From: Octopus vulgaris
Taxonomy: Eukaryota
Assembly (NCBI GenBank): GCA_951406725.2
Contig: OX597817.1
Coordinates: 156,674,001-156,738,000 of the forward strand
Reading direction: 5' to 3'
DNA length: 64,000 bases
This document shows, piece by piece, positions 21,917-64,000 of the stretch (positions within the stretch are counted from its first letter, which is position 1; the number at the start of each line of letters is the position of its first letter). The translations under genes and the position numbers were made by a program. A model generated the notes under the pieces. The model saw only the letters and a list, made by a program, of their open reading frames with translations. It did no database searches and was not told where the DNA came from.

Positions 21917-24900
21917 AGGCAGACATTGCAGATGGCCAAATGATAACTCATGACTACACACTTGACAGTTCCTTTGAAAGCCAACGGATTCCTGATGACT
22001 CTGAATTGCAGAGTGTTGAAGTAGAAGATATCTATTATGAGCGCTCCTTAACTCCGTTGTTAGGAAGAGAATCTGATATGGTATGGAGAAATGAATGCCA
22101 GCAGAGGGATAGGAAAAATTCTTATCTCTCTGAGAATTTTCAGGAACTTGACAGTGTGTGCCGTCAAAATTATCTCCCACAACTGAGGCATTTTCACAGA
22201 GAAACAGATGAGTTTTCTTCCACTCAATCCATGCTAATTGATTCCAGATATTCAATGTCTTCGAACTTGAAAGAGAAGCCTTTCAACCTAAATTCACACA
22301 TTCATGATGAGTCCTTACATGAAGAGGAATCAATCGTTTCACATGCGGAGACCTGCCATTCCATATCAAATATATCGGATGATTACGATAACAGTTCCAC
22401 GTCCTCCTGTATTACTGTCGTTGCTGTTGATACACCAGCTATCCAAAGTTCCAATGCTGAACAACTTGACCCAGTATTAGGCTCCTGTGAAACAAATTTA
22501 GTTCCAGAGAAGTGTCCAGAGATTGAAACTAGTTCCAATGATACACGCATTCATTACAAAGCACCATCTCCGCAGCAAATGAACAATTTCAGGCCACCCA
22601 TTTTTCCCTTTCCTCCCCATCCAATGTATTCTAATGCATATAACTATGGTGGAATGCCTTGGTATATGTCAGGTACAGGCAAAAGCTTCCCACACATGTA
22701 CAACCATCACAAAAGTCTTCCAGGCATGTATGACTACAATAGAATGCCTTCTCACAAGCATTACTCAAACAGAAATGCTGAAGACCCCTATGACTTTGAT
22801 AACATGTCTGAGTACTCGTGTGTCCTGGACAGAAATTCTATGGACACACATGACATAGGCAGTAAGTCACGCTACTCAAGTGAGCAAGATATAAACTCAC
22901 AGAGTTCAGGTGGATATAACCTAAAAAGAGAATCTCTGGAAACAGTTGGCATAGACAGACAGTCTGTAGATACTTTCAATGCAAAGAGGAAATCTCTTGA
23001 CACTAGCTGTGACAATGTATCTCAAGATACCTTTAACTCTGATTCTTCACATAAAAAGGTATCTGGTTGTGTGCAACATGCTCCAAGCACATTCAGTTAT
23101 GACAGTAACTCACTGGATATTTATAAGGATGATAGCATGAGATTTCTTGATACCTATGACATTGAGCCTTTGTCACCAGACTCGGATTGCTATAGCTCGA
23201 CTTCTGATTTGTACAAGCGTGACAGCATGCCATCCAATAGATATGATACCAATGAAATGAATTCTATCAGAATGAGCCTTAGTTCACAGGACAGTATCAC
23301 AATGCTATCAGACACATATGACTCTGGTAGAATGACTCCAGATGTGTATGACTCACATAAGATGACAGCTAATGCAAATGACTCATGTAGAATAACAGCT
23401 GATTCATATGACTCTCATAGAATGACAGCTGATCCATATGACTATCGTAGAATGACAGCTGATCCATATGACTCTCGTAGAATGACAGCTGATTCATATG
23501 ATTCTCGTAGAATGACAGCTGATTCATATGACTCTCGAAGAACGACAGCTGATCCATATGACTATCGTAGAATGACAGCTGATCCATATGACTATCGTAG
23601 AATGACAGCTGATCCATATGACTCTCGTAGAATGACAGCTGATCCATATGACTCTCGTAGAATGACAGCTGATTCATATGACTCTAGTAGAATGACAGCT
23701 GATTCATATGACTCTCGTAGAATGACAGCTGATCCATATGACTCTCGTAGAATGACAGCTGATTCATATGATTCTCGAAGAACGACAGCTGATCCATATG
23801 ACTCACAGAGAATGACAGCCGATTCATATGATTCTCATAGAATGGCAGCTGATTCCTATGACTCACATAGAATGACAGCTGATACATGTGATTCTTATAG
23901 AATGAATGCTGATATGTGTGACTCACATAGAATAACAGCTGATACATGCGACTCACGTAGAATGACAGCTGATACATGTGACTCACGTAGAATGACAGCT
24001 GATACATGTGACTCGCGTAGAATGACAGCTGATACATGTGACTCACGTAGAATGACAGCTGATACATGTGACTCACGTAGAATGACAGCTGATACATGTG
24101 ACTCGCATAGAATGACAGCTGATACATGTGACTCACGTAGAATGACAGCTGATACATGTGACTCACACAGAATGACAGCTGATACATGTGACTCACGTAG
24201 AATGACAGCTGATACATGTGACTTGCATAGAATGACAGCTGATGCATGTAACTCTCATAGATTGGCAGCTAATGCATATGACTCTCATAGAATAGCAGCT
24301 GATACTTATGACTCACATACAATGACAGGTGACATGTATAACTCAGGTACAATGACAGCTGGTACATATGACTTGTGTAGTGTGATATCTGATACATATG
24401 ACTCCCATCAAATAACAGCCAATAGATATAACCTCCGTAGAACAACAGCTGACATATATGACTCTAGTAGAATGACCACTGATACAGATGACTATAATAC
24501 TGTGTCTCAGGATTCCTATGATTCTGGCAGACTGTCACCAGACTCGTATGACTGTCATAGTTTGTCACAATATATGTATGACTATGAAAGACATTCACCA
24601 GATACATACAGCTTAGATCAAATGTCTGCAGATTCATGCTGTGAGGAAGAATATGATGAAGTCTTTTCCTCACAAAATAATGCATTGGATACAGACACTG
24701 CTCCAGACTTCTATTGTTCCAGAACCTTACCTGGGTCATTTAAAGAAAACCCTGCACTTCTTCATAGTAATATTTACAAACCAAGGAGTTCCTTTAAAAA
24801 GTGTAACAACCAGCAGCTACCTGTTAGAAATATGTATAACATGTTGCCCTCTCGGGGCTATCATACACCTGTTATTCCTAACAGAGGTTCAATGTTCTAC

Positions 24901-27025
24901 AGAAGGTTTAATACTGGAAGCTGTTGTGATGATAGTGATGAGAGTGATGTTTTGTCACTTGAAAGTCTAATTAATGATGATCCCAATGAGAGGAACAGTG
25001 ACACAAATGGCACTGATGGTCTGTTTGTAAGCAACCATAATTTAGGGTTATTTTCTGATCTGCAACATAGACTTAGCCAGACAAAGGACAAGGGCATACC
25101 CAACTGTGATGACTTCATATACCCAACAAGTGCTAGGAATCAACGGTTTTCTAGTCAAAATGCTTTCAATGTTGATAAAACAATTCCTAGCAAGTTCGCT
25201 AATGATCAGAATAATATGCTATGGAACAAACGTAATATTCCACTATATAGCAGCTCTTGTTACAATGATTACAATGCTGACCGCAGGACTGTAGAAATGG
25301 GTGCCCATAACAGTGACCAGGTGTATCAACAGTCAAAAGGTTCTCATTTCCAGAATGACCACTTGAAGTGTTACAACTCAGAGAAGCCTGATTCAAAAAA
25401 TAGCTGCCTATTGCCTTCTCAGTCTAAAGACTCTATACAAAGTCTACAAAACATTGACAATTATGGCCCTATGTTACCCCCTCCCCCCTACAGTGGCCCT
25501 AAATCAAACTTATCTTTCAAAGGTTATGACAGGCAGTACCCTTATTCTAACAGGTCTAACAACCATAACCATTACCCATGCATGTTTGACCAACACTGTC
25601 CAACAATACCAAGTTATAACAGTGAGGATGGTGATCACATGTCTTTTAATAGTTCTGACGAGAAAAGTCTGAATAGCAAAACTTTCCATCAGTTAAATAA
25701 TCCAAGCTTCACTCGTAAAAATTTCCATGATTTCTCAAAGAGCATGTCTACATTAGAATCTGAGAACAGAAGTACAAGTTTTCCTCGACGTTCTACCAAT
25801 GCAGGAACTTATGACTCCAGTCAGTCTTTAGATTTGCACCCTAGGTATGAAAACGATCCCCCAACATTTGGAGCTTCTACAAATGAAAGATTATTCAAGC
25901 CCCTTCAGAAGGAAAACTATGTGTACAATTGTTCCAGCCGTTCTTCAAGTCTGGCAAGATATCCCAGTAATGTTACACAAATGTCTGATTCTGATACCCC
26001 ATATTCTAACATCTTGGATAATAGTTGCTATACAGGTTTCAGAAGTAACAAAATGCCTTATCTAAACTCACCATGTGGTCCGAATTGGTTTGGCTTGCAA
26101 GAAATTCCTTTCTCTTTCCAAAGTTTTCCTCCTTTTGGTACCCGCACCTCCAGATCTGGTCTTAGTAATCACTTCGGTAAGAAACAAATTCTTTATGACT
26201 TCACTAAACCATTTTCTAACCAGTTTTTCTCTCTTGGAATGGTCTCAAATATGATGGATGAAAATTCTTTGAAGACCAAAGAATTACTAAGTGGACCAGT
26301 AAAGGGTTCAGACAATGTATGCTCACACAGAATTCCCCAAATGGATAACCGTTTTTGTTATAAATTTCCATTTGATGATACTGTCTCATCTGGGAATTCT
26401 TCAAGTAGGTATAAAGGCTGTTTAAAGAAAATATCTTCTGATATATCATTAGAACATGAACCTATTCAGATTCCATCTAGGCAAGAGGTATCCAAGTCAT
26501 CTGTAACACCTGGGAATGGTAAAAACTGTCATGCAGTGATGCAGCAGCTAAATCCTAAACAAACTTTCCCATTGACATATTCTGTTGGTTCTTTGTCTCT
26601 GTTGGATTTTGAAATATTCAGAGTGGAAGAAAAAGTAACTTTTGAAAGACCCAAATTGGAAAGCCTGTCTATTATAAGAGGACAGAAAGCCCGTTCTTTC
26701 ACTGATGTGTCTTGTAGTTTTGATGCCCTTGATGGTCAAGCTGGTGGAAGCATCTGTGATATTCCTATGGTAGATGTTCAGACACTTGCAGTACCACCAT
26801 GCACTATAGAAGATGTAACTTCCTCATGTCTTTGTGATAAGGTTAATGTTAAAGATGCTACTACAGCTTCTCAAGTCAAAGTAATACCTTTAGAAGAATC
26901 AGATTTGTTCACACAAGAATTTGAGATAGCTCCACCCAAAGAAGAATATATGTCCATCCTACGTGGTTGTGCTGCCAAGTCCAATCAAGATGTGTTTCTA
27001 CATGAAGGTCTAAGTGTCAGCAAAG
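21917..27025 (+). CDS. giant phase-1 cassette exon (5109 nt, 1703 codons), Ser/Asp/Tyr/Met-rich disordered polypeptide with 10-aa tandem repeats; probably part of a giant ankyrin-like gene
   Basis: ORF 21901-27042 (1713 aa). An in-frame TGA sits immediately before the ATG. Acceptor GTGATTTTCCAG|AG at 21916 and donor AAAG|GTAATT at 27025 give a length divisible by 3. A standalone intronless gene cannot be excluded. Confidence 0.8.
23311..24480 (+). repeat. coding 30-bp tandem repeat (MTAD[P/S/T][Y/C]DSRR)
   Basis: AGAATGACAGCTGAT[CT]CATATGACTCTCGT units in exact 30-nt register. About 28 highly similar units at 23401-24240, with degenerate units on both sides. Confidence 0.95.
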
Positions 27026-36627: not shown

Positions 36628-39600
36628 GCCGTTGGAAACGTGCCAATGCTATGAAAAGAAAAAAACACAAAAAAAAATCACCCAGTGGTGCACAGATAGA
36701 ACGTGAGGCTGCGAGAGTAAAATCCCCTGGAATAGAGAATAAGGTAGAAGGTGAAGTTTTCAGAACCCCTCCTACAGAAAAGACTGATGTGGAAGAATAT
36801 GAAAAGGTTTTGGAGGATGGTACTATGTACCATGTTAAGCGAATCCGAAAGCATTCACTGTCTCGTGTTAAGAGAAAAATTGTTTCAGAAGATGGTACTG
36901 AAAGATTGGTTGAGGAAAACATTGATATACCTGGAACAGAGACTATTGACAGTATTGAGACTTTTGAACAGCCACCTCGTTCTGTAAGTGTGATTGAAAA
37001 AGTAACAGAAGAACTTCCTTCTGGTAAGGTGGTTGAGCGTAAGATGCAGAATGTTCGAATGGTGCACAAGATCAAGACAACGCACAAACACATTGACCCA
37101 GACCAGACTATCAAATTTGAGGAATATGAAATGGATGAGGTAGTTCCTGGTACAGAAACTTGCTTTTACATTGATGATAAGTCTAATGTTGATGCCAATA
37201 GAACTACTCAGAAGCCTCAGATACCTATTGACAAAAATCTATATCGTGTAGATTTACCATTTGAGCTGGAACGCTTTTACCATGTTGATCAAGACAGGCA
37301 GCAAAAAGAACAGAGTCCTCTTAACCATGTTGAAGTAACTGATGGCCAAATGGTCAAAGGAACTGTTGAACTGCATGTTGATCAACATATCCAGGAAAAG
37401 ATTCAGAAGCCAAACACCAAAGATATCAGACGTATTGAGTTACCACAAGAAGATTCATTCCAAGATAATAATTTCACATCTGATCAAGTTGACAACCAAA
37501 CTCTTGAAACATTCATGTGTAAAAATGTTCCGAGTGCGAAAATGTCAGTTGGTCAGGATCATGTTGATTTGCCAGTGGATACAGATGATGTACATGAAGA
37601 TCTACCAGCTGCTCAAAATGTCAGACGATCTCTTGGTGAAGGTGTCTATCATGTAGACCAGCCTGTTGCTTTGGAAACTTTGCACCGTGTTGAGAAACCT
37701 TCCTTTCAAAGTGGAGAGTATCCTATTGATCAATCAGTTGATAGCATTGAACCAGTTGATGCCAACATTGCGTATAGTCAACAAATTCCATCTGATCAAG
37801 ATTATAACATTGGAAAGCTGTCTGCTCCAGATATTCCACATGTAGAAATTACAAAAATTGAAGATTATGATGAATATTATGATGTACCAGCTGGTGAAGT
37901 GCTGCCAGATACTAAAGTTACCAAACCTACTGGTCCATTTGGTGTCTACCATGTTGATCTTCCAGTGGATCTTGAACAATTACATCGTGTTGACCCACCT
38001 TCCCGTCCAGTCAGCTCTCAAGATATTGACAAATCACTTACTCAAGCTGACATCCCAACTACTCAAGACTTCCCAGAAGGTATTGAACACACTATTGGAG
38101 AGTATCGTACCACACCTGTTGATGTTTTCCAGGTCAAGATCACCAGCTACCTGTTGAGCCACTCTCTCGTAAAGACATTCCTGTAGTTGAGTCATCTCTT
38201 GATCAAATTCATCAGCATGTCCCTATTCCTACTGATCAAAATGTCAGACGCTCGGTTGGTGGAGGTGTATATCATGTAGACCAGCCTGTTGCTCTGGAAA
38301 CTTTGCACCGTGTTGAGAAACCTTGCCTTTCAAAATGGAGAGTATCCTATTGATCAATCAGTTGATAGCATTGAACCAGTTGATGCCAACATTTCGTATA
38401 GTCAACAAATTCCATCTGATCAAGATTATAACATTGGAAAGCTGTCTGCTCCAGATATTCCACACGTAGAAATGAGGAAACCTGAAGATCATGATGAATA
38501 TTATGATGTACCAACTGGTGAAGTGCTGCCAGATACTAAAGTTACCAAACCTACTGGTCCATTTGGTGTCTACCATGTTGATCTTCCAGTGGATCTTGAG
38601 CAATTACATCGTGTTGACACACCTTCTCGTCCAGTCAGCTCTCAAGATATTGACAAATCACTTACTCAAGCTGACATCCCAACTACTCAAGACTTCCCAG
38701 AAGGTATTGAACACACTATTGGAGAGTATCGTACCACACCTGTTGATGTTGTCTTCCAGGTCAAGATCACCAGCTACCTGTAGAGCCACTCTCTCGTAAA
38801 GACATTCCTGTAGTTGAGTCATCTGTTGATCAAATTCATCAGCAAGTCCCTATTCCTACTGATCAAAATGTCAGATGCTCGGTTGGTGGAGGTGTATATC
38901 ATGTAGACCAGCCTGTTGCTCTGGAAACTTTGCACCGTGTTGAGAAACCTTCCTTTCAAAATGGAGAGTATCCTATTGATCAATCAGTTGATAGCATTGA
39001 ACCAGTTGATGCCAACATTTCGTATAGTCAACAAATTCCATCTGATCAAGATTATAACATTGGAAAGCTGTCTGCTCCAGATATTCCATACGTAGAAATG
39101 AGGAAACCTGAAGATCATGATGAATATTATGATGTACCAACTGGTGAAGTGCTGCCAGATACTAAAGTTACCAAACCTACTGGTCCATTTGGTGTCTACC
39201 ATGTTGATCTTCCAGTGGATCTTGAACAATTACATCGTGTTGACCCACCTTCTCGTCCAGTCAGCTCTCAAGATATTGACAAATCACTTACTCAAGCTGA
39301 CATCCCAACTACTCAAGACTTCCCAGAAGGTATTGAACACACTATTGGAGAATATCGTACCACACCTGTTGATGTTTTTCCAGGTCAAGATCACCAGCTA
39401 CCTGTAGAGCCACTCTCTCGTAAAGACATTCCTGTAGTTGAGTCATCTCTTGATCAAATTCATCAGCAAGTCCCTATTCCTACTGATCAAAATGTCAGAC
39501 GCTCGGTTGGTGGAGGTGTATATCATGTAGACCAGCCTGTTGCTCTGGAAACTTTGCACCGTGTTGAGAAACCTTCCTTTCAAAATGGAGAGTATCCTAT

Positions 39601-42600
39601 TGATCAATCAGTTGATAGCATTGAACCAGTTGATGCCAACATTTCGTATAGTCAACAAATTCCATCTGATCAAGATTATAACATTGGAAAGCTGTCTGCT
39701 CCAGATATTCCATACGTAGAAATGAGGAAACCTGAAGATCATGATGAATATTATGATGTACCAACTGGTGAAGTGCTGCCAGATACTAAAGTTACCAAAC
39801 CTACTGGTCCATTTGGTGTCTACCATGTTGATCTTCCAGTGGATCTTGAGCAATTACATCGTGTTGACACACCTTCTCGTCCAGTCAGCTCTCAAGATAT
39901 TGACAAATCACTTACTCAAGCTGACATCCCAACTACTCAAGACTTCCCAGAAGGTATTGAACACACTATTGGAGAGTATCGTACCACACCTATTGATGTT
40001 TTTCCAGGTCAAGATCACCAGCTACCTGTAGAGCCACTCTCTCGTAAAGACATTCCTGTAGTTGAGTCATCTCTTGATCAAATTCATCAGCAAGTCCCTA
40101 TTCCTACTGATCAAAATGTCAGACGCTCGGTTGGTGGAGGTGTATATCATGTAGACCAGCCTGTTGCTCTGGAAACTTTGCACCGTGTTGAGAAACCTTG
40201 CTTTCAAAATGGAGAGTATCCTATTGATCAATCAGTTGATAGCATTGAACCAGTTGATGCCAACATTTCGTATAGTCAACAAATTCCATCTGATCAAGAT
40301 TATAACATTGGAAAGCTGTCTGCTCCAGATATTCCACACGTAGAAATGAGGAAACCTGAAGATCATGATGAATATTATGATGTACCAACTGGTGAAGTGC
40401 TGCCAGATACTAAAGTTACCGAACCTACTGGTCCATTTGGTGTCTACCATGTTGATCTTCCAGTGGATCTTGAACAATTACATCGTGTTGACCCACCTTC
40501 TCGTCCAGTCAGCTCTCAAGATATTGACAAATCACCTACTCAAGCTGACATACCAAGTACTCAAGACTTCCCAGAAGGTATTGAACACACTATTGGAGAA
40601 TATCGTACCACACCTGTTGATATTGTTCCAGGTCAAGATCACCAGCTACCTGTAGAGCCACTCTCTCGTAAAGACATTCCTGTAGTTGAGTCATCTGTTG
40701 ATCAAATTCATCAGCAAGTCCCTATTCCTACTGATCGGAATGTCAGACGTTCTGTTGGTGGAGGTGTATATCATGTAGACCAGCCTGTTGCTCTGGAAAC
40801 TTTGCACCGTGTTGAGAAACCTTCCTTTCAAAGTGGAGAGTATCCTATTGATCAATCAGTTGATAGCATTGAACCAGTTGATGCCAACATTTCGTATAGT
40901 CAACAAATTCCATCTGATCAAGATTATAACATTGGAAAGCTGTCTGCTCCAGATATTCCATATGTAGAAATGAGGAAACCTGAAGATCATGATGAATATT
41001 ATGATGTACCAGCTGGTGAAGTGCTGCCAGATACTAAAGTTACCAAACCTACTGGTCCATTTGGTGTCTACCATGTTGATCTTCCAGTGGATCTTGAGCA
41101 ATTACATCGTGTTGACCCACCTTCTCGTCCAGTCAGCTCTCAAGATATTGACAAATCACTTACTCAAGCTGACATCCCAACTACTCAAGACTTCCCAGAA
41201 GGTATTGAACACACTATTGGAGAATATCGTACCACACCTGTTGATATTGTCCCAGGTCAAGATCACCAGCTACCTGTAGAGCCACTCTCTCGTAAAGACA
41301 TTCCTGTAGTTGAGTCATCTCTTGATCAAATTCATCAGCAAGTCCCTATTCCTACTGATCGGAATGTCAGACGCTCTGTTGGTGGAGGTGTCTATCATGT
41401 AGACCAGCCTGTTGCTCTGGAAACTTTGCACCGTGTTGAGAAACCTTCCTTTCAAAGTGGAGAGTATCCTATTGATCAATCTGTTGATAGCATTGAACCA
41501 GTTGAAACCAACATTTCGTATAGTCAACAAATTCCATCTGATCAAGATTATAACATTGGAAAGCTGTCTGCTCCAGATATTCCATATGTAGAAATGAGGA
41601 AACCTGAAGATCATGATGAATATTATGATGTACCAACTGGTGAAGTGCTGCCAGATACTAAAGTTACCAAACCTACTGGTCCATTTGGTGTCTACCATGT
41701 TGATCTTCCAGTGGATCTTGAGCAATTACATCGTGTTGACCCACCTTCTCGTCCAGTCAGCTCTCAAGATATTGACAAATCACTTACTCAAGCTGACATC
41801 CCAACTACTCAAGACTTCCCAGAAGGTATTGAACACACTATTGGAGAATATCGTACCACACCTGTTGATGTTGTCCCAGGTCAAGATCACGATCTACCTG
41901 TAGAGCCACTCTCTCGTAAAGACATTCCTGTAGTTGAGTCATCTGTTGATCAAATTCATCAGCAAGTCCCTATTCCTACTGATCGGAATGTCAGACGCTC
42001 GGTTGGTGGAGGTGTATATCATGTAGACCAACCTGTTGCTCTGGAAACTTTGCACCGTGTTGAGAAACCTTCCTTTCAAAGTGGAGAGTATCCTATTGAT
42101 CAATCAGTTGATGCCAACATTGCGTATAGTCAACAAATTCCATCTGATCAAGATTATAACATTGGAAAGCTGTCTACTCCAGATATTCCACATGTAGAAA
42201 TGAAGAAACCTGAAGATCATGATGAATATTATGATGTACCAACTGGTGAAGTGCTGCCAGATACTAAAGTTACCAAACCTACTGGTCCATTTGGTGTCTA
42301 CCATGTTGATCTTCCAGTGGATCTTGAACAATTACATCGTGTTGACCCACCTTCTCGTCCGGTCAGCTCTCAAGATATTGACAAATCACTTACTCAAGCT
42401 GACATCCCAACTACTCAAGACTTCCCAGAAGGTATTGAACACACTATTGGAGAATATCATACCACACCTGTTGATGTTGTCCCAGGTCAAGATCACGATC
42501 TACCTGTTGAGCCACTCTCTCGTAAAGACATTCCTGTAGTTGAGTCATCTCTTGATCAAATTCATCAGCAAGTCCCTATTCCTACTGATCGGAATGTCAG

Positions 42601-45600
42601 ACACTCGGTTGGTGGAGGTGTATATCATGTAGACCAGCCTGTTGCTCTGGAAACTTTGCACCGTGTTGAGAAACCTTCCTTTCAAAGTGGAGAGTATCCT
42701 ATTGATCACTCAGTTGATAGCATTGAACCAGTTGATGCCAACATTTCGTATAGTCAACAAATTCCATCTGATCAAGATTATAACATTGGAAAGCTGTCTG
42801 CTCCAGATATTCCACACGTAGAAATGAGGAAACCTGAAGATCATGATGAATATTATGATGTACCAACTGGTGAAGTGCTGCCAGATAGTAAAGTTACCAA
42901 ACCTACTGGTCCATTTGGTGTCTACCATGTTGATCTTCCAGTGGATCTTGAACAATTACGTCGTGTTGACCCACCTTCTCGTCCAGTCAGCTCTCAAGAT
43001 ATTGACAAATCACTTACTCAAGCTGACATCCCAACTACTCAAGACTTCCCAGAAGGTATTGAACACACTATTGGAGAATATCGTACCACACCTATTGATG
43101 TTGTCCCAGGTCAAGATCACGATCTACCTGTTGAGCCACTCTCTCGTAAAGACATTCCTGTAGTTGAGTCATCTCTTGATCAAATTCATCAGCAAGTCCC
43201 TATTCCTACTGATCGGAATGTCAGACGCTCGGTTGGTGGAGGTGTATATCATGTAGACCAACCTGTTGCTCTGGAAACTTTGCACCGTGTTGAGAAACCT
43301 TCCTTTCAAAGTGGAGAGTATCCTATCAATGAATCAGTTGATAGCATTGAACCAGTTGAAACCAACATTTCGTATAGTCAACAAATTCCATCTGATCAAG
43401 ATTATAACATTGGAAAGCTGTCTGCTCCAGATATTCCACACGTAGAAATGAGGAAACCTGAAGATCATGATGAATATTATGATGTACCAACTGGTGAAGT
43501 GCTGCCAGATACTAAAGTTACCAAACCTACTGGTCCATTTGGTGTCTACTATGTTGATCTTCCAGTGGATCTTGAACAATTACGTCGTGTTGACCCACCT
43601 TCTCGTCCAGTCAGCTCTCAAGATATTGACAAATCACTTACTCAAGCTGACATCCCAACTACTCAAGACTTCCCAGAAGGTATTGTACACACTATTGGAG
43701 AATATCGTACCACACCTGTTGATATTGTTCCAGGTCAAGATCACCAGCTACCTGTAGAGCCACTCTCTCGTAAAGACATTCCTGTAGTTGAGTCATCTGT
43801 TGATCAAATTCATCAGCAAGTCCCTATTCCTAATGATCGGAATGTCAGACGCTCTGTTGGTGGAGGTGTATATCATGTAGACCAACCTGTTGCTCTGGAA
43901 ACTTTGCACCGTGTTGAGAAACCTTCCTTTCAAAGTGGAGAGTTTCCTATCAATCAATCAGTTGATAGCATTGAACCAGTTGAAACCAACATTTCATATA
44001 GTCAACAAATTCCATCTGATCAAGATTATAACATTGGAAAGCTGTCTGCTCCAGATATTCCATATGTAGAAATGAGGAAACCTGAAGATCATGATGAATA
44101 TTATGATGTACCAGCTGGTGAAGTGCTGCCAGATACTAAAGTTACCAAACCTACTGGTCCATTTGGTGTCTACCATGTTGATCTTCCAGTGGATCTTGAA
44201 CAATTACGTCGTGTTGACCCACCTTCTCGTCCAGTCAGCTCTCAAGATATTGACAAATCACTTACTCAAGCTGACATCCCAACTACTCAAGACTTCCCAG
44301 AAGGTATTGTACACACTATTGGAGAATATCGTACCACACCTGTTGATATTGTTCCAGGTCAAGATCACCAGCTACCTGTAGAGCCACTCTCTCGTAAAGA
44401 CATTCCTGTAGTTGAGTCATCTGTTGATCAAATTCATCAGCAAGTCCCTATTCCTAATGATCGGAATGTCAGACGCTCTGTTGGTGGAGGTGTATATCAT
44501 GTAGACCAACCTGTTGCTCTGGAAACTTTGCACCGTGTTGAGAAACCTTCCTTTCAAAGTGGAGAGTTTCCTATCAATCAATCAGTTGATAGCATTGAAC
44601 CAGTTGAAACCAACATTTCATATAGTCAACAAATTCCATCTGATCAAGATTATAACATTGGAAAGCTGTCTGCTCCAGATATTCCATATGTAGAAATGAG
44701 GAAACCTGAAGATCATGATGAATATTATGATGTACCAGCTGGTGAAGTGCTGCCAGATACTAAAGTTACCAAACCTACTGGTCCATTTGGTGTCTACCAT
44801 GTTGATCTTCCAGTGGATCTTGAGCAATTACATCGTGTTGACCCACGTTCTCGTCCAGTCAGCTCTCAAGATATTGACAAATCATTTACTCAAGCTGACA
44901 TACGAAGTACTCAAGACTTCCCAGAAGGTATTGAACACACTATTGGAGAGTATCGTACCACACCTGTTTATGTTTTTCCAGGTCAAGATCACCAGCTACC
45001 TGTAGAGCCACTCTCTCGTAAAGACATTCATGTTGTTGAGCCATCTGTTGGTTACATTGGTCAGCAAGTCCCTATTCCTACTGATCAAAATATCAGACGC
45101 TCTGTTGGTGGAAGTGTTTATCCTGTTGACCATCCTGTTATTCCGGGAACTTTGCACTATGTTGACAGAGAGTATCCTGTTGGTCAGTCAGCTGATACTA
45201 CTGAAACAGGTGATGTCACTCTTCTTCATGGTCGACAACTTCTACCTGATCAAGATTATAATATTGAAATACTCTCTCCTCAAGATATTCCACAGGTACA
45301 AATGTCCAAAACTAAAGATAATTTTCAGTATCATGATCTGCCAGCCAGTAAACAACTGCAAAGTATTGATGTGGCCAAACCTAGTGGTCCATTTGGTGTT
45401 TATCATGTTGATCTTCCAGTGGATCTAGAACAGCTACATCGTGCTGCCAAACCTTCTTCTCAAGGTGGCTCTCAGCCTGTCGATAAACCAGCAGGCAATG
45501 CTGACGTCACTACACATCATGATACCCCAGAAATTATTGGACAGTCTATTGGAGAATATCATACAACACCTGATCTTCCTACTAGTCAAGGCCAATTGCC

Positions 45601-48600
45601 TACTAAACAAGATGATCATATAATCAAACAGCCCATTGCTCCAGGTGTTCAATATAATAAAATATCCACTCAAGATACTGATGCTGTTCATATTCCCACT
45701 GACCAATATGGCCAGCCTATTTCTCCATCCACTGCTCAAGATGATCATGGTAATAGACTGTCCATTGGTGCAGGTGTTTATCATGTGGATGTTCCAAGTA
45801 ATCTTGAACAACTACACAGAGTTGACCAACATAGTCAGCTGAGACCTACAAGCGATATTGATCAACCTACGCATCAGGATGTACAAGGTAACATTGGTTT
45901 ACGTGCTGGTCAGGATGTTGAAAACAATGTTGTAATACCTGCTCCTGAAGGCATTCGTAGTGTGACTGTGGTTTCTACTCCAGGAATACATCATATGTCC
46001 TCTCAAATTGTAGATATGCAGTCTCCTGTCACATCCTCTGACCTGAAATTTCCACTTGCTCAGGAACAGTATACTGGTGAAGGTATTCCAGTTCCCACAA
46101 GTCGAGATCAACTTAATAAGGCAGATATTCACATTGGTGAAGGCCAAGAGCTGTCAAGTATTGAGCAGCTCGCAGATAAAGGTAGTTCCAGTGTTGATCC
46201 ACGTGGTTTTGCTTTACCATCCAATAAAGGCAATACATACATTGGTGGGTTACCAGTTCATGCTGAGCTTCCTACTAGCCAAGAGGATCATCGTGATGGT
46301 CTTTCAACTAATCGGCCTTCCTTCCATAGTGACACCCCAACAGGTGGTTCACGCCTGCATCACGTTGACCACTCCACCGGTCAAGATAGTTGCAAGCCCA
46401 TTGACTTATCTGTTGATCAAGATCCTTTAGTTGACAATTTTCCTGCCGATCAGTACTGCTATTATGTTGACCCCCCTATAACCGAAAAAATTTCCCTTGC
46501 ACATGAAACTACTGACCTATCCACGAACAAACATATACCTCTACATAGTTTTCATCTGTCCACTGGTCAAGATGTTCATCAACATCTTCCTCTTCAGGCT
46601 CATCAAGTTGAATTACATCATGATGATTCTCGAACTGAAGATGGTAATCAAGATACTAACAAAATTGTTGGAGTTCATTGTGATAAAGTATCTGCTGGTG
46701 GTCAGATTCTAACCACGGTCCTGACATCTGACAGTGATGTTGGTCACCTTCGAGAGGAAGATCATAATGTTGATGGAAGTGTCAGTTCAGATGGGGCTGT
46801 CCCTAGCATTCAGGCACAAGTACAAAATCTCAATGTCACCTCATGCCAAGGACAGCTCAAAAAAGATGACCTATCCAGTGGGCAAGATAAGTTCAAGTCA
46901 GTTCAAAATACTGGTCAACATAGAGATGACCATGAATGTCGGTATGGCCTCAAACATACTGACCAACATGGAGATGACCATGAATGTCAGTATGGCCTCA
47001 AGCATACTGATCAAGATGATGATCATGAATGTCGGTATGGCCTCAAACATACTGACCAGCATGGAGATGACCATGAATGTCGGTATGGCCTCAAACATAC
47101 TGACCAGCATGGAGATGACCATGAATGTCGGTATGGCCTCAAACATACTGACCAGCATGGAGATGACCATGAATGTCGATATGGCCTTAAACATAGTGAC
47201 CAACATGGAGATGACCATGAATGTCGGTATGGCCTTAAACATACTGACCAGCATGGAGATGACCATGAATGTCGATATGGCCTTAAACATACTGACCAGC
47301 ATGGAGATGACCATGAATGTCGATATGGCCTTAAACATAGTGACCAACATGGAGATGACCATGAATGTCGATATGGCCTCAAACATACTGACCAGCATGG
47401 AGATGACCATGAATGTCGATATGGCCTTAAACATAGTGACCAGCATGGAGATGACCATGAATGTCGATATGGCCTTAAACATAGTGACCAACATGGAGAT
47501 GACCATGAATGTCGGTATGGCCTTAAACATAGTGACCAACATGGAGATGACCATGAATATGGCCTCAAACATACTGACCAACATGGAGATGACCGTGAAT
47601 GTCGGTACGGCCTCAAAGACAGTGAACAACAACAAGATGACTTTCAATGTCAATATAGCATCAAATATATTGACCAACATAGAGATAACAAAGAATGCGA
47701 GTATAGCCTCAGACATACTGACCAAGGTAATGTCTTTGAATGTCAGTATGACCTCGAACATAGTGACCAGTATAGGGATGATCAATACTGCTTTTATATT
47801 AACCCCCCTGTCACCGAACAAATTTTCCTTGCACCTCAAACTGCTGACCCATCTGTGTCCAAACATGTTCCTCTACATTGTTTTCATCTGTCCACTGGTC
47901 AAGATGTTCAACAACATATTCCTCTTCAGTCTCATCAAGTTGATTTACGTCATGCTGATTCTCAAACTGGTGAAAATGGTAATCAAGTTGGTGACAAAAC
48001 TGTTGACATTCATTGTGATAAAGTATCCACTGGTGGTCAGATTCTAACCACTGTCCTTACGTCTGACAGTGATGCTGGTCACCTTCAAGAGGAAGGTGGA
48101 ATAGTCTCTGTCGTCCAGACACATGTACAAAAGAACCTCACCTCTGAGGGAGCTCAATCGCAAAAAGATGACCTTTCCACTGGACAAGGTCAGTCCAAGT
48201 TAGTTCAAGGTACTGAACAGCAGGGCACTGAATATAGCTTTGGACAAGGTCTTCAACAGAGCAGCAGCACTGAATGCAAGTATACTTTTGAACATACTGG
48301 TCAATCAGGTGAAAGTAGTAGCTATAACATTGAACAAACACACATCACACACAGTTTTCCAAAATCTGATGAGCTCTCTGGTCATCAACAGGGTGACGTA
48401 TCCATCCTCCATCTTTCCACCCAACAACCCGATGCACCTTCTAGTAGTCGCTCTCAAAGTAGCACTACTCAGCAAGGGGACATTTCATATTCCACTCACA
48501 TATCATCTCAGTCAACTTCAGACCAAGATACTCTCCAATTCCAAGACTCTCGCACACCGACCGTTCTATCTGACCCCACTAAAGAGGTCACAACAAAAAA

Positions 48601-48656
48601 GTCTTCACGGAAATCTCGTAAATCAAATCGTAAGAAGAAAAAAACATCTTCACAAG
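36628..48656 (+). CDS. giant phase-1 exon (~12 kb, ~4009 codons after correcting three indels) encoding a repeat-rich disordered region; probably giant ankyrin-like
   Basis: Acceptor TTTTTGCTTTACAG|GC at 36627 and donor CAAG|GTAATT at 48656. ORFs 36651-38186, 38289-38783 and 38930-48784 are one repeat-continuous reading broken by -1 (~38128), +1 (~38326) and +2 (~38754) indels relative to the other repeat copies. 12029-2 = 12027 nt = 4009 codons. Confidence 0.8.
37614..45085 (+). repeat. coding 624-bp (208-aa) tandem repeat, 12 near-identical units plus a degenerate 13th to ~45600
   Basis: Units begin CAAAATGTCAGACG/CGGAATGTCAGACG at 37614, 38237, 38864, 39488 ... 45086. One unit is 606 bp (18-bp deletion near 42110). 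Confidence 0.95.
46919..47770 (+). repeat. coding 48-bp (16-aa HGDDHECRYGLKH[T/S]DQ) tandem repeat
   Basis: About 15 close copies plus 3 degenerate copies, seen in both the DNA and the 3284-aa ORF. Confidence 0.95.
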
Positions 48657-55469: not shown

Positions 55470-55640
55470 CCCGTCTCGCTGTGGCGGGGAAAACACCCAC
55501 CATAACTATCACCGAGGACAGCAGCAGCCCCCATCATGACGATGATGATGAAGAAAGCGATGATTATCTCCGCTTTATCGAAAAGCATCAGCAAAAAATG
55601 CAACAGCAACAACAACAAGCTGCTGCTGCTGTTGACAAAG
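55470..55640 (+). CDS. phase-1 cassette exon (RLAVAGKTPTITITEDSSSPHHDDDDEESDDYLRFIEKHQQKMQQQQQQAAAAVDK)
   Basis: Acceptor TTGTTACTTTCAG|CC, donor AAAG|GTTAGA, 171 nt open and GC-rich. An alternative in-frame acceptor at 55430 gives 210 nt. Confidence 0.8.
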
Positions 55641-59359: not shown

Positions 59360-60160
59360 CATCTTTATATATAAACAGTACCAGGTTCTCCATAGAGATC
59401 AGTATTGCCACAATAACAGCCCTTCTATGCAGGTCAATTTGTCAGAGGTACAATGTCAAAAGGATTACATTAATTTAAAAGATAGTGGTGTGTGGTTCTC
59501 TCTTCTCAAGCTCTTTCTGTCTGTCTCTTTCCATTTCCTTTTCTTCAAAAAAAAAAAAAAAAATCACAGCAAACAACAAAACAAACTCAGTTCTATATTA
59601 AAATCTAGTAGTGATTATTCTGATTTTTAAAATCTAGGAATAATTTGGTGTCCAACAATAATTTTTAAAAAATTTACTGAAATTTATAGAGCATTGGATC
59701 AATATTCCTGATCAGAGTTTCAACCTTGAGACATAAAATTAAAACTGAGATTCAGTTTTTAAAATAAAAACGAACTGCGTTTCTTTTGAAAATTGTTTTT
59801 TGTCTTTGAAGTTTTTCATCTCATATCTTCCTAAATACCACCATAAAAGCCTGCTAAAACTAAATAACTGATTGTTTCTATTTTGTACATTTGTTTTTGT
59901 TTTTTTAGCAACTGACCTCTTTTTTTCCTTCTTGTCATCTAAACAGTTTTTGGTCTTCCAGTGGGTGTTTTTAACAGTTTTATATTGCACATTGATTTAT
60001 TTTTCATTTCTGTATCACTTTTCACATGTGTATGTGTGTATTGTATCACTTTTTATTCTTTACCTCCCTACTGTTGTTTGGTGTCTGTTTTTCGGGTTAT
60101 CATTCGTCTGTGTATTTCTATTTAAGTCGGTGTATTGACAAAACCCTTCTCTACTAGCAG

Positions 60161-60223
60161 GTCAAGAGCCAACCACCACGACCACCACCACAGTGTCTTC
60201 TGAAGGCCATGGGGAAGAATCAG
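60161..60223 (+). CDS. 63-nt phase-1 exon (GQEPTTTTTTVSSEGHGEES)
   Basis: Acceptor CCCTTCTCTACTAGCAG|GT (TAGCAG tandem), donor TCAG|GTAATG, 21 codons open. Confidence 0.8.
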
Positions 60224-60527
60224 GTAATGTTGAAACCTCTTGATGCTATGCTATGCTGTTTGTTGCATCTAGCCATCTAAATGTTTCACGTAAACAGTTT
60301 TTGTTTTATCCCCACATATTTTTATCATTATAATTATAATTATTTTTGTCTTTTTTTGCCTCATTGTTTGCTACAGTTGATCAATGCTTTTTGTATATGA
60401 CCATTTATTCAACATTACACACACACACATGCATATATATGTATTGATATATGCATATGTGTGAGAGAGAATGATGATGTAAAACAATATAGAGAACACA
60501 TAAATTAATTCAATACAAAAAATGCTA

Positions 60528-60782
60528 TACTCTTTTACTTGTTTCAGTCATTTGACTGCGGCCATGCTGGAGCACCGCCTTTAGTCGAGCAAATCGACCC
60601 CAGGACTTATTCTTTGTAAGCCCAGTACTTATTCTATCGGTCTCTTTTGCCGAACCGCTAAGTGACGGGACGTAAACACACCAGCATCGGTTGTCAAGCA
60701 ATGCTAGGGGGACAAGCACACACACACACATACACACACACATATATATATATATAAGCTACTTATCACACAGCCACTCCTG
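60528..60782 (-). mobile_element. family-B SINE with internal deletion
   Basis: The 3' half is intact. The (CA)n(TA)n linker is joined directly to the extreme 5' end (AAGCTACTTATCACACAGCCACTCCTG). Confidence 0.8.
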
Positions 60783-61976
60783 TTTTTTTTTAACCTTAAA
60801 ATATTTATAGAGTTATCTCAGACAACAAACATTTTGGTCTAACATTAAAAGAATAAAGATTTTGAAAGATTGTGATTTTGACCAATGGGTTGCACACTCA
60901 TTCATTTTCTATGATTCTGTAAGGCCCCACTCCATGGAAATTTCAATCTTTCCTTTGTGACAACCCATATGTTTTTTCTCTCTCTCTCTCTGAGTTTTAA
61001 CTCAGCAATTTATCTCAGAGCCAAACTAAATATTCGTTATGCATTTATACTTCTACTGGTTACTGTCATTCAACTACAGCCATGACAGTGCTTCTGTCTT
61101 TAGGGGTTTTAGTCAATTATACTGACCCCAGTACTTCAGTCTGGTATTTTTGTTATCGATCTCTATTTGTCGAATTGTTTAGTTTTTTTTTTCACATAAA
61201 AGGATACAACCCAATGCCCATATTTATACCACCAATTAACACAGACACATATATGCACACACATACACACACACTGGCTTCAGCACAGTTCGTGCCTACC
61301 AAATTCTTATCACATGGCATTGAACAACCTAAGTCTACAAGACTTGTCACTAGCCCAAGGTGCTGCGCAATAGGATCAAAGTTGGAGCCATACACATACA
61401 CACACAAAAATATATATATATTTATATATATATACATACATATATATAGATATAGATATAGATATATATATATATATATATATGCACATACAGGCACTAA
61501 TTCTATATTGTTCATGGTACTATTTTTCTGAAAGAAAATAGAAAATTCATCGGCATGTTAATAACCAAGGATGATTTTTAGAATACTTTGTGATTTTTTT
61601 TTTGATTTTTTTTATTCCACCCTTACTGTTGCTAATATATCCCAAAGTGCATGAATGCATTAATGCAAGATTTTCTTGATTTACAATTATCCTCCTGCTC
61701 CACTGAAGAACTGAAGCTAGTTCAAGACTCTCATCATCCTCATTTGAAATAATTTTATTTTTCCCATTTAAACATCCCAGTGTCTGCCGGTTTTTTTTTT
61801 TTTTTTTTATTTTTTTTTTTATAATGTTTGTTGTCAATACCTTTACAACATTTTCCTCTTCACCTTTATATATCTTAGTTAATCCAGTAAATCCCTGCTG
61901 CTATCAGTTATTCTTATTTATCCATCATATCTGCACTGTGTATGTTTTCTTGTTTATTTTTTCAATTTATATTTTG

Positions 61977-62010
<34 letters not shown>

Positions 62011-63084
62011 AATGTTTTTGTTTCTTATTTTATTTTGATTTCTTCCAATTAAGGCTGTTTTATTCCCAGTCTGCACTGTGAAGCTTGTTTTTACTGCTAT
62101 ACATGTGATATAAAGTATTGCATATATTTTATAAATATATATATATATATACACGTGTGTATATGTATGTATATATATATTTATATATATTTATATATAT
62201 ATATATATATATAAACAAACTTGATAATCTTGTGTTATCGTGATATTCTTGTATGTTTATAATTAAATGTTTAGAGTATTCTGGAATGATATACCCATAA
62301 AAAAGAAAATGATCTTCATTTGTTTTGTTTACCAAAATAGTTTCTTTGAGGCCTGAAGATCTGATCCCTTTTCAATACCTATAACTTAAATTCTTAAATT
62401 ACTTTATATTTATATTGACTCCATCAAAATTCCTATTTACTAATCTTTACATTAGTAAATACTTTAAACCAAAAGTTGGCATCAACTGAGTAATTTATAC
62501 ATCATATTCTTTTAGAAATTCCAAATTTTTACTATTTCACTTGAAAGATTTTTGGTATATCCAGGGTTCTCGTTGCATTAATGGTAATTAATAATTCTGA
62601 TCAGAACATTTCATCATTAACCAGGTTAAAATGAACTTTTAATTAACTCTGATTTTTTTTTTCCCATTATTTAATCTTCTTAACTCTTTATTAATTATAA
62701 TCCAGCATTTTCAATTTAAACTTATATACATATACTCTCACACATTGCTACACACAGATACAGAAAAACATACACAAATACATATAAATGTATATATAAT
62801 ATATGTATCTATATGTGCGTGTGTATGGTTTTTTTTTTTTTTTTTTTTTGGTAATGTTCCATTTTCTCAATAATTCCTTTACAATAACTAATGTGTATTA
62901 CTTAAAGCAAAACTCTGTAAACCATTTCCTTCTAATAACATTTCCAATTTACTCATCTTGAAATCTCTCCTTTTTAATGCTTGCATTTCGGATTGCTGTC
63001 GGATTTTTTTTTTTTTTTTTACCTACCTTTAATTGTAAAACAAACAAAAACAAAACTATTGACAAAAAAACAAACCCTTGATAG

Positions 63085-64000
63085 ATGATGAGAGTGAGGG
63101 TAAAACAAGATCAGTCGCTTCTATTATTCAAATGTTTGAGCAAACATCTGACACTGCTTTGCAAAGTTCAGCTACAGACATTGTTCGTGAAGTCCAGAAA
63201 TCAGCACAAGCAACGTTACGCAAAGAATCTCAGGAATTCGTAAAGCAAGACTCTTCTGAGTGGGTTGTCATTGACGACAGCGATCTTGATGGCTTTGATG
63301 CAGAAAAGGTGCCATCAGCCAATGGTACTTATGTTGAAACAGAAGATTCTGCTCCAAAGGTAGAAGAATGGGTAAAAGTCTCTGCTGTCAAAGAGAAATT
63401 TGAGGACAAAATTAAGAATGGCTCCATGTCTGAAAAAACTATTATACGTGAAGCCACCAAAGTTCACACAAGCACTTTAGCAAAACATAAATCTTCAGAG
63501 AAAGCTGATGATGTTGATCAACCTTACGGTGTCCCGGAACCGCCCGACGCCCACTTTAAGACTCCCTCAGATGATGAAAATCTTGAATTTTCTGAGAAAT
63601 TGAAAATGTTTACTGGTAAACATGCCCAAAATTATTATGTCACAACTCAACCTGATGAGTTATTAAGCTCTGATGAAGAAACACCAGACACTACCTCGAA
63701 AGGAAGTGAAAGGTCATACCAAACTGCATCTGAAACGAGTGAAATCCGATCTGAAACTGTAAAAGTGTCTTCTACAGGAGAGCAAAAAAGTGAAGTCGTT
63801 GAAGAACGACGCGAAAGCACTTCATCACTGATTGCCAAGTTTGAGGAAGCTACAACTCGTGAAAAGCCGTCAAAGAAAGAGGCCATGTCATTTGACAAGG
63901 ATAGCAAAGAAACAGTACAAAAAGAAGTGACAAAATCTTGGAAAACTGATTCTTCTCAAAGTGCAGTCCAGGAGATAAAGGAAAGTCACGTATTCCAAGA
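63085..64000 (+). CDS. 5' part of a third large phase-1 exon, running off the window; giant-ankyrin-like (LIR motifs, S-V-x-x-h-x-x-x-F-E motifs)
   Basis: Acceptor CCCTTGATAG|AT, open for all 916 nt: DESEGKTRSVASIIQMFEQTSD...KQDSSEWVVIDDSDLDGFD...KVEEWVKVSAVKEKFEDK...STSSLIAKFEEATT...ESHVFQ. Absent from the ORF track, presumably because it has no stop inside the window. Confidence 0.85.

What the first reader, a model, noticed from the sequence alone, without database searches (positions are those of the whole stretch)
63085..63860. Unlisted ORF with ankyrin-B-like LIR motifs and repeated ...F-E helices
Seen: DSSEWVVIDDSDL (W at 63261) and VEEWVKVSAVKEKF (W at 63369), plus four related motifs SVASIIQMFE, VSAVKEKFE, FSEKLKMF and STSSLIAKFE. 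Established: giant ankyrin-G and -B bind GABARAP/Atg8 via acidic W-x-x-[FVI] LIR motifs near the start of their giant exons (ankyrin-B: EEEWVIVSDEEI), and similar V-x-x-h-x-x-x-F-[EQ] motifs recur in giant ankyrins. Inference: this exon is the conserved neuronal giant exon, and the two upstream giant exons are additional ones.
Basis: partly seen in the sequence, partly recalled or inferred. Interest (0 to 1): 0.7.

Follow-up and report, generated by a model that had tools for sequence, protein, structure and literature searches.

The report
Octopus giant ankyrin exon, actin-type motifs
This stretch is the spliced start of a 7.1-kb giant exon of an octopus ankyrin gene, and its repeated short motifs match a known actin-filament-binding motif, the first of which clams, oysters and a brachiopod keep at the same place, so this giant ankyrin likely grips actin directly, although no binding has been tested.

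Summary
63085 is a used splice acceptor (4 of 4 laid runs join it to an exon at 60161-60223). The frame runs on for 7,113 bp to 70197, downstream of the death domain of a canonical ankyrin gene. This is the known protostome-type long exon, already present in public Octopus gene models. [quoted passage not shown] SFM1 recurs at the same relative place in 7 of 13 lophotrochozoan copies of the exon; a motif like SFM3 occurs in 10 of 13 chelicerate sequences. The two W motifs are kept only in octopus-grade sequences; the second has Lys at +7 and overlaps SFM2. The LIR-plus-helix site kept in snails, clams and oysters corresponds to exon residue F998, beyond the window. An octopus-only array of 55 K[ST]P lies between. 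Actin binding, Atg8 binding and neuronal expression are inferred, not tested. Interest 0.5.

The parts
63085..64000 (+). 5' part of a giant (long) exon of the ankyrin gene: 7,113 bp, 2,371 codons, phase 1 at both ends, downstream of the death domain. It runs on past the window to 70197 (numbering extended). Beyond the window it holds an array of 55 K[ST]P (64260-65997), the F998 LIR plus helix (66078-66116) and two RPxSPx[EY/EF]TL motifs (69690-70001); a second giant exon of 9,225 bp follows at 91334-100558.
   Evidence: AG..GT and no stop; 5' splice seen in 4 of 4 laid runs; O. bimaculoides model P0006 aligns to 63084-70202 and continues at 75343; S+E 29.0%, top six residues 65.0%; K[ST]P 57 here and 48 in O. 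bimaculoides against at most 8 in 36 other sequences; F998 rank 1 of 2,354 under a non-octopus LIR profile (partly circular); PxSP seeds 12 and 14 of 36, all lophotrochozoan; second exon's YDLDSG-type marker in 14 of 18 lophotrochozoan sequences
60161..60223 (+). Small 63-bp exon spliced directly onto the giant exon (intron 60224-63084)
   Evidence: Loose ends at 63083 in 4 of 4 runs; a 16-nt piece of them has one match in 463 kb, at 60202
63114..63140 (+). SFM1, VASIIQMFE with Ser at P0: best candidate F-actin-binding helix
   Evidence: Fits VxxLxxxFE with Ile at P4; same motif at the same relative place in 7 of 13 lophotrochozoan exon copies; in a predicted helix (low-confidence single-sequence model)
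63261..63272 (+). W1 (WVVI): LIR-like core with acidic flanks and Asp at +7 but Gly at +10; candidate octopus-level LIR
   Evidence: Kept in O. bimaculoides and in unnamed P0008; seed beats all shuffles in 1 of 36 other sequences, and that hit is the site matching F998; rank 3, not significant, under the mollusc LIR profile
63369..63380 (+). W2 (WVKV): weak LIR candidate; its last Val is P1 of SFM2 and +7 is Lys
   Evidence: 0 of 36; rank 223 of 2,354 under the LIR profile; the second oyster SFM has no Trp at this place
63378..63404 (+). SFM2, VSAVKEKFE
   Evidence: P1 Val, P4 Val, P8 Phe, P9 Glu; four oysters have a second SFM 79-84 residues after SFM1 (motif map), against 88 here; its own seed beats all shuffles in 0 of 36
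63588..63614 (+). SFM3, FSEKLKMFT: atypical SFM (Phe at P1, Lys at P4, Thr at P9)
   Evidence: F-x-[ED]-[RKC]-L-x-x-F-[EQ] in 10 of 13 chelicerate sequences; a profile from five of them ranks this site first in the exon, 4 of 500 shuffles as high; Phe at P1 and Lys at P4 occur among listed SFMs
63819..63845 (+). SFM4, TSSLIAKFE
   Evidence: 7 of 9 residues identical to the listed FGD1 SFM VSSLIEKFE; Thr at P1 as in cortactin; no positional counterpart found outside Octopus (1 of 36, and that hit is the Lingula SFM1)
55470..55640 (+). Alternative 171-bp exon of the same gene
   Evidence: AG..GT, no stop; in models P0007 and P0145
36628..48656 (+). Upstream 12-kb exon candidate: conserved ~190-residue block, then 208-residue repeats; frameshifted in this assembly
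   Evidence: The block matches 15 of 18 lophotrochozoan and 0 of 18 arthropod sequences; the repeat part is continuous with the 55470, 60161 and 63085 exons in O. bimaculoides model P0007; frame changes between 38130 and 38750
21917..27025 (+). Upstream 5.1-kb phase-1/1 exon candidate with 10-residue repeats; inclusion in ankyrin not shown
   Evidence: AG..GT, no stop; in 0 of 33 and 0 of 16 Octopus models (two models are in both sets); covered by contigs in 3 of 4 runs with no splice seen

Best explanation
Position 63085 opens the first of two conserved giant exons of an octopus canonical ankyrin gene, spliced in after the death domain, and its first 255 residues carry four short motifs of the F-actin-binding SFM type that likely tether the long, predicted disordered tail directly to actin filaments. 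Shown: gene structure, 5' splice, exon length, motif content and conservation. Inferred: each motif folds as a single helix into the cleft between actin subdomains 1 and 3, as solved for ITPKA and USP54; four low-micromolar sites in tandem would give avidity or bridge filaments, adding a direct actin link to the spectrin link of the ZU5-UPA core. Further along, the F998 LIR with its helix would bind an Atg8/GABARAP protein as ankyrin-G W1989 does, and the KSP array between them would act as a phosphorylation-tuned spacer. W63261 may be a second, lineage-restricted LIR; W63369 is more likely just the flank of SFM2.
For: Gene: ZU5, UPA and Death matches lie on the same strand 63, 35 and 31.5 kb upstream of the window, and a 7,515-aa O. 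bimaculoides ankyrin maps exon by exon from ANK repeats through this exon. Splice. Long-exon position and composition agree with PMC5135030. SFM definition, tolerated substitutions and Ser at P0: PMC13364712. Clustering: 4 in 260 residues, 2 of 20,000 shuffles (post hoc pattern). SFM1 seed beats all 100 shuffles in 7 of 36 sequences from three lineages (venerid clams, oysters, Lingula), always 76-189 residues after the same conserved block and before the PxSP motifs; S, F and E are invariant in the 7-row alignment. All four motifs fall in predicted helices. Human ANK2 1990-1998 and ANK3 2715-2723 are listed as predicted SFMs. An ESM Atlas search returned Xin-repeat proteins at rank 2 and 3 (score 0.80, a lead only), and Xin repeats are listed SFMs. 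LIR features (+7 Glu, C-helix); F998 has them.
Against: No binding was measured. SFM1 was found in 0 of 6 gastropod copies of the exon; SFM2 and SFM4 seeds beat all shuffles in 0 and 1 of 36. SFM3 departs from the consensus at P1, P4 and P9, and no SFM in the published table has Thr at P9. A control 16-mer (residues 81-96) also beat all shuffles in 8 arachnids at an unrelated place, so a match to one clade, such as the SFM3-chelicerate match, can be chance. The human ANK2/ANK3 entries are predictions without a validation comment. The AlphaFold2 models are single-sequence and weak (pLDDT 55.8 and 64.8), and the F998 helix starts three residues before the core, which must be extended when bound. 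The F998 profile test is partly circular, and the F998 seed alone gave 5 of 36 with some off-site hits. The 36 comparison sequences include no vertebrate, fly or nematode. Tissue of expression is unknown.
Confidence: 0.6

Rival explanations
1. One reading: the exon's start is an Atg8/GABARAP-binding module built on the two Trp LIRs, and the F-E helices are their C-terminal helices or incidental.
For: Two [DE]Wxx[ILV] in 260 residues, 22 of 20,000 shuffles. W1 has acidic flanks, Val/Val/Ile and Asp at +7 and is kept in P0008 at 62% overall identity. A review lists Drosophila Ank2 among Atg8a two-hybrid hits (passage). The exon holds only 4 Trp, two of them here.
Against: Seeds: 1 and 0 of 36. 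W2 has Lys at +2 and +7 and changes to WTKV in P0008. W1 has Gly at +10 and ranks 3rd, with 227 of 500 shuffles as high. Three of four helices have no aromatic LIR core directly before them.
Confidence: 0.2
2. The helices are conserved binding motifs for another partner (a microtubule-associated adaptor, spectrin, or the ankyrin's own repeats), and resemble SFMs only because amphipathic helices ending in F-E are common.
For: The first half of the Drosophila L exon contains a microtubule-binding region and targets to the proximal axon (section read). A 2025 review lists Ndel1 and GABARAP, not actin, as partners of the ankyrin-G insert (passages).
Against: The invariant positions in the alignment (S at P0, F at P8, E at P9, with hydrophobic P1/P4) are those that define the SFM. 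No canonical SxIP enrichment.
Confidence: 0.13
3. The exon is a fast-evolving Ser/Glu-rich spacer, and the motifs near its start have no conserved function.
For: PMC5135030 found no long-exon homology between phyla. A phmmer search of 1.84 billion representatives found only 4 hits: two O. bimaculoides models, one unnamed close relative and one unrelated repeat protein. No Pfam family and no PDB hit.
Against: Of 67 sliding 16-mers, 62 reach at most 3 of 36 sequences and one reaches 4, while SFM1 reaches 7 at a fixed relative position across three lineages.
Confidence: 0.07

Closest known systems
Bilaterian giant ankyrin long exons downstream of the death domain (Aplysia 7,569 + 6,560 bp, Lottia 6,818 bp, Drosophila Ank2 L/XL; PMC5135030 Table S4)
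   Same: Position after the death domain, size (7.1 and 9.2 kb), Ser/Glu bias, internal lineage-specific repeat array, two tandem long exons as in Aplysia.
   Different: No cephalopod in that survey ('octopus' 0 occurrences in the main text; none in Table S4). Here up to four giant frames follow the death domain, against at most two reported. That paper saw no sequence homology between phyla; here short motifs are kept in order between molluscs and a brachiopod.
[quoted passage not shown]
   Same: V/T/F at P1, hydrophobic or Lys at P4, Phe at P8, Glu at P9 (three of four), Ser at P0 in SFM1 and SFM4, low-complexity surroundings, tandem copies as in neurabin-1 and XIRP1.
   Different: Untested here. 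That paper lists one predicted SFM each in human ANK2 and ANK3, only in its supplement, and found no mollusc instance among its validated proteins. SFM3 has Thr at P9.
Giant ankyrin-G LIR with C-terminal helix (W1989, F1992, E1996; bioRxiv 10.1101/307512; ankyrin-B and FAM134B per PMC6499816)
   Same: F998 site: acidic lead-in, aromatic 0, hydrophobic +3, Glu +7, helix-forming tail, inside the giant exon.
   Different: Phe instead of Trp at 0 in Octopus (Trp in snails, clams, oysters and a scorpion); exon lies after, not before, the death domain. The two Trp motifs of the finding lack the helix (W1) or the +7 acid (W2).
Neurofilament-H/M KSP phosphorylation repeats (recalled; no call)
   Same: Dense Lys-Ser-Pro repeats in an acidic, low-complexity tail.
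   Different: No homology was tested; the array sits in an ankyrin and is absent from the 36 non-octopus sequences.

Membership tests
Canonical ankyrin gene | ANK repeats, ZU5-ZU5-UPA and death domain in order on one strand | tested here: met
   Pfam matches; exon map of P0006; Pfam sets of P0006 and relatives
Giant-ankyrin long exon (protostome type) | Single multi-kilobase open exon downstream of the death domain | tested here: met
   7,113 bp, AG..GT, no stop, 94.6 kb after the Death match
Giant-ankyrin long exon (protostome type) | Spliced into the ankyrin transcript | tested here: met
   5' junction in 4 of 4 runs (runs are only guessed to be RNA, but the join removes a GT..AG intron); in 33 of 33 Octopus models, which were retrieved as giant isoforms; 3' junction from models only
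Giant-ankyrin long exon (protostome type) | About 25% Ser+Glu and over 55% S/E/T/D/K/P | tested here: met
   29.0% and 65.0% against the values
Giant-ankyrin long exon (protostome type) | Neuron-specific inclusion and axonal localisation | not testable with these tools
   Runs carry no tissue or library record
[quoted passage not shown] | Core P1/P4/P8/P9 of VxxLxxxFE or listed substitutions | tested here: met
   SFM1 V/I/F/E, SFM2 V/V/F/E, SFM4 T/L/F/E; SFM3 F/K/F/T is marginal
[quoted passage not shown] | Single helix within a disordered region | tested here: inconclusive
   All four lie in helices of a pLDDT 55.8 single-sequence model with long low-confidence linkers; the paper's disorder and helix filters were not run
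[quoted passage not shown] | Core positions conserved in orthologues | tested here: inconclusive
   Met for SFM1 in 7 of 13 copies (6 of 6 bivalves, Lingula, 0 of 6 gastropods); weak or absent for SFM2-4
[quoted passage not shown] | P1/P8-dependent binding to actin filaments | not testable with these tools
   Needs co-sedimentation or cell co-localisation
Ankyrin-G/B-type extended LIR, site W63261 | Acidic lead-in, aromatic 0, hydrophobic +3, acidic +7 | tested here: met
   E-1, D-4, W0, I+3, D+7
Ankyrin-G/B-type extended LIR, site W63261 | Amphipathic C-helix from +7 and conservation beyond octopuses | tested here: not met
   G at +10; only a 5-residue helix predicted; 1 of 36, off-site
Ankyrin-G/B-type extended LIR, site W63369 | Acidic residue at +7 | tested here: not met
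   K+7; core overlaps SFM2
Ankyrin-G/B-type extended LIR, site F998 | Acidic lead-in, aromatic 0, hydrophobic +3, Glu +7, helical tail, conserved | tested here: met
   Phe for Trp; profile test partly circular
Ankyrin-G/B-type extended LIR (any site) | Binding to GABARAP/LC3 | not tested

The most novel reading that the evidence does not exclude
Giant-ankyrin long exons, thought to share only composition across phyla, keep an ancient ordered string of short motifs: F-actin-binding SFM helices followed by an Atg8-binding LIR with a C-helix. It is seen here in octopus and bivalves, in part in a brachiopod and gastropods, and is echoed in arachnids and by the predicted SFMs and known LIRs of human ANK2/ANK3. 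Giant ankyrins would then be direct, spectrin-independent actin-filament binders since the bilaterian ancestor, and these would be among the oldest animal SFMs.
Probability: 0.3. Interest if true: 0.78.

Novelty: new member of a known kind. Interest (0 to 1): 0.5.

Why it matters
The exon itself is expected: long ankyrin exons are reported for all major bilaterian groups and this one is in public gene models (often named 'titin' or 'uncharacterized'). What is useful is the motif map. The common origin of giant ankyrins rests on position and composition because no sequence homology was found between phyla (PMC5135030). Ordered short motifs give a sequence-level handle and 20-residue peptides that can be tested at once. 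A direct actin link would matter for how giant ankyrins organise the proximal axon, where the passages read describe the actin link as running through spectrin. No paper tying the giant exon to direct F-actin binding, or describing an octopus giant ankyrin, turned up in searches (listings only, open-access library only); the only trace is two rows in a supplementary table.

Tried and rejected
Complex prediction of SFM1 (40 residues) with an intronless, divergent actin of this genome (79% identical to the closest canonical fragment): no answer, score 0.21 against a mark of 0.34, alignments not used, peptides outside the tool's tested range; it is no evidence either way. Two word-based protein searches with the exon's start found nothing (length-limited). 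PDB sequence search: 0 hits at E up to 10. Pfam: 0 families for this exon and the two upstream frames tested. P0009 is an unrelated repeat protein and was dropped. SxIP: not enriched; one SKLP inside the repeat array and one acidic SDIP. No run is on record as RNA: 'no RNA holder listed'. The 21917 exon candidate: no cover in 1 of 4 runs, contigs running through the acceptor in 2, one contig starting at 21916 without a loose end, so splicing is not shown. Aplysia and Lottia full sequences in Table S2 of PMC5135030 are cut at 400 characters and could not be scanned; they bear directly on the gastropod absence of SFM1. One supplementary PDF of PMC13364712 had no text. Li et al. 2018 (PMID 29867141) is not held; the primary Drosophila Ank2-Atg8a paper was not found. 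Earlier notes of this scan: nothing relevant. Rejected: a stand-alone gene or short ORF (spliced internal exon); a vertebrate-type exon between UPA and death domain (it lies after the death domain).

Full report
Observation. The six motifs are present in one + strand frame at the stated coordinates. The window lies at G000:C4:156674001-156738000 of a 2.8-Gb genome, and the exon start has one match in it. With 200 kb fetched on each side, the frame stays open to 70223 (window numbering is extended past both ends in this report). It is bounded by AG at 63083-84 and GT after 70197: 7,113 bp, 2,371 codons, phase 1 at both ends. The closest named protein is 95% identical over residues 1-260 and comes from Octopus bimaculoides, so the genome is an octopus.

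Gene. Pfam searches of the genome put ZU5 at -63126, UPA at -35746 to -33884 and a death domain at -31506, all on the + strand. The 7,515-residue model P0006 maps exon by exon from ANK repeats (about -177 kb) through ZU5, UPA and death domain, small exons, 60160-60222, 63084-70202, 75343, a second giant exon 91333-100557 and three last exons ending at 114225. Contigs of 4 of 4 laid runs begin at 63083 with the same loose end and none covers the intron; a 16-nt piece of that end has one match in the 463 kb, in the exon ending at 60223. The runs are only guessed to be RNA and have no tissue record. The exon is in 33 of 33 and 16 of 16 Octopus models checked (these were retrieved as giant isoforms, and two are in both sets). 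Its composition (S+E 29.0%, six top residues 65.0%) fits the long-exon signature, and its place after the death domain is the protostome position (PMC5135030; I read the abstract, passages, sections 8, 9 part 1 and 10, Table S4 and two cut rows of Table S2). So the exon is a new member of a known kind.

The F-E helices. [quoted passage not shown] There P1 and P8 are essential, P4 and P9 tune affinity (Lys at P4 is tolerated), Ser at P0 contacts actin, and affinities are 2-12 uM. SFM1 (VASIIQMFE) resembles the validated ARHGEF11 motif VRNIIQHFE; SFM4 (TSSLIAKFE) matches FGD1 VSSLIEKFE at 7 of 9 places; SFM3 (FSEKLKMFT) resembles neurabin-1 FTETRKMFE but has Thr at P9. The table lists predicted SFMs in human ANK2 (1990-1998, ipTM 0.9) and ANK3 (2715-2723, ipTM 0.64) without a validation comment; the main text does not mention ankyrin. 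That these positions lie in the human giant exons I infer from the exon sizes and a recalled end of the UPA domain near residue 1450. Four matches in the first 260 residues compare with 0.27 in shuffles (2 of 20,000 reach 4; pattern set after seeing the motifs). All four lie in helices of a weak single-sequence model.

Conservation. A search with the ZU5-UPA core among proteins of 4,133-13,152 residues scored 828 candidates and listed 120. From the non-octopus rows I took the longest isoform of each of 36 genes in 34 species (18 lophotrochozoan, 18 arthropod; no vertebrate, fly or nematode) and cut them after the death domain. Thirteen of the 18 lophotrochozoan tails carry the PxSP motif that marks the end of this exon; the other five lack all three markers, probably because those isoforms skip the exon (inference). 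SFM1 is found in 7 of these 13: 6 of 6 bivalves and Lingula, 0 of 6 gastropods; its seed beats all 100 shuffles in those 7 of 36. It lies 76-189 residues after a conserved block that corresponds to the start of the 36628 exon. In the 6 sequences with both SFM1 and the LIR, the order is SFM1, LIR, PxSP, as in octopus. Four oysters have a second SFM 79-84 residues on. A motif like SFM3 occurs in 10 of 13 chelicerate tails and 0 of the other 23; a profile from five of them ranks the octopus site first (4 of 500 shuffles). Against this: of 67 sliding 16-mers, four reach 7 or more sequences; two are the PxSP motifs, one is SFM3, and one (residues 81-96) hits 8 arachnids at an unrelated place and looks like chance. 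The chelicerate link is therefore suggestive only. SFM2 and SFM4 seeds score 0 and 1 of 36.

The LIR claim. The ankyrin-G site is W1989/F1992 with Glu at +7 and a C-terminal helix (bioRxiv 10.1101/307512, passages; PMC6499816 and PMC7615515, passages). W63261 has the core and Asp at +7 but Gly at +10; W63369 has Lys at +2 and +7 and overlaps SFM2. Both Trp are kept in O. bimaculoides and in one unnamed relative at 62% identity, but their seeds score 1 (off-site) and 0 of 36. A third site, F998 (66078), has acids at -1 to -4, Ile +3, Glu +7, Ile +8 and a predicted helix over residues 995-1013. A Trp form of it is in 10 of 13 lophotrochozoan copies and a similar one in a scorpion. A profile of seven such sites ranks F998 first of 2,354 windows (0 of 500 shuffles), W63261 third (227 of 500) and W63369 223rd. 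Several training sites were first noticed with the F998 seed, so that test is partly circular; the profile found further significant sites in only 4 of the 29 tails outside the model.

Other parts. Residues 392-970 hold 55 K[ST]P; O. bimaculoides has 48 in its tail and none of the 36 others more than 8. SxIP is not enriched. The two upstream giant frames miss the long-exon composition (S+E 14-18%). The 36628-48656 unit begins with a block conserved in 15 of 18 lophotrochozoan tails, continues with 208-residue repeats, is frameshifted in this assembly and is present in one set of O. bimaculoides models. The 21917-27025 unit is in none of the models and no splice was seen.

Mechanism. Shown: a spliced giant exon of ankyrin with an ordered set of partly conserved short motifs. 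Inferred (0.6): the first 255 residues form a multivalent F-actin-binding segment; F998 binds an Atg8-family protein; the KSP array is a phospho-regulated spacer (likeness to neurofilament repeats is recalled). Rivals: Trp-LIR module (0.2), another partner (0.13), no function (0.07).

Verdict. Known kind of exon, correctly spotted. The added value is the reassignment of the helices to the SFM class and of the conserved LIR to F998, which gives a direct test of what giant-ankyrin long exons have kept across phyla. Interest 0.5; the boldest reading (ancestral direct actin binding by giant ankyrins) has probability 0.3 and interest 0.78.

Noticed in passing
window 36628-48656: 12-kb exon candidate with a 624-bp (208-residue) repeat array; the frame changes several times between 38130 and 38750 and the length is not a multiple of three, while the O. 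bimaculoides model runs on through the later repeats; probably assembly errors in the repeats.
   Followed up: partly
window 21917-27025: 5.1-kb open phase-1/1 exon candidate with over 30 copies of a 10-residue DSRRMTADxY-type repeat; in no Octopus model checked, no relative among 36 ankyrin tails, contig cover in 3 of 4 runs without a splice.
   Followed up: partly
window 21917 to 100558 (numbering extended): Six of the seven post-death-domain exons checked are multiples of three with AG..GT, which would allow free mixing; up to four giant exons in one gene exceeds the two reported in PMC5135030.
   Followed up: partly
L002:6690-7001 (window numbering 69690-70001): Two RPxSPx[EY/EF]TL motifs are the best-conserved words of the exon (13 of 18 lophotrochozoan tails; no arthropod among the seed hits); they look like proline-directed phosphorylation or docking sites, partner unknown.
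   Followed up: partly
G000:C4:156765334-156774558 (window numbering 91334-100558): The second giant exon holds several SSSLxEFERLE-like helices near residues 2400-2540 and a conserved YDLDSG block.
   Followed up: no
window 60158-60161: Tandem acceptor (TAG CAG) before the small exon; model P0145 reads one extra Ala here.
   Followed up: no
L044 (G000:C8:84622639-84623757) and G000:C27:12.58-12.88 Mb: An intronless divergent actin, and a tandem cluster of about twelve divergent actin-like genes; the six aligned are 49-59% identical to it.
   Followed up: no
G000:C4:401862-403157: A second ZU5 plus death-domain gene in a single 656-codon open frame, elsewhere on the same contig.
   Followed up: no
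window 63711 and 63600: An A-to-G difference in one run and a T-to-C difference in another; could be alleles or, for the first, RNA editing; no matched DNA run was laid.
   Followed up: no
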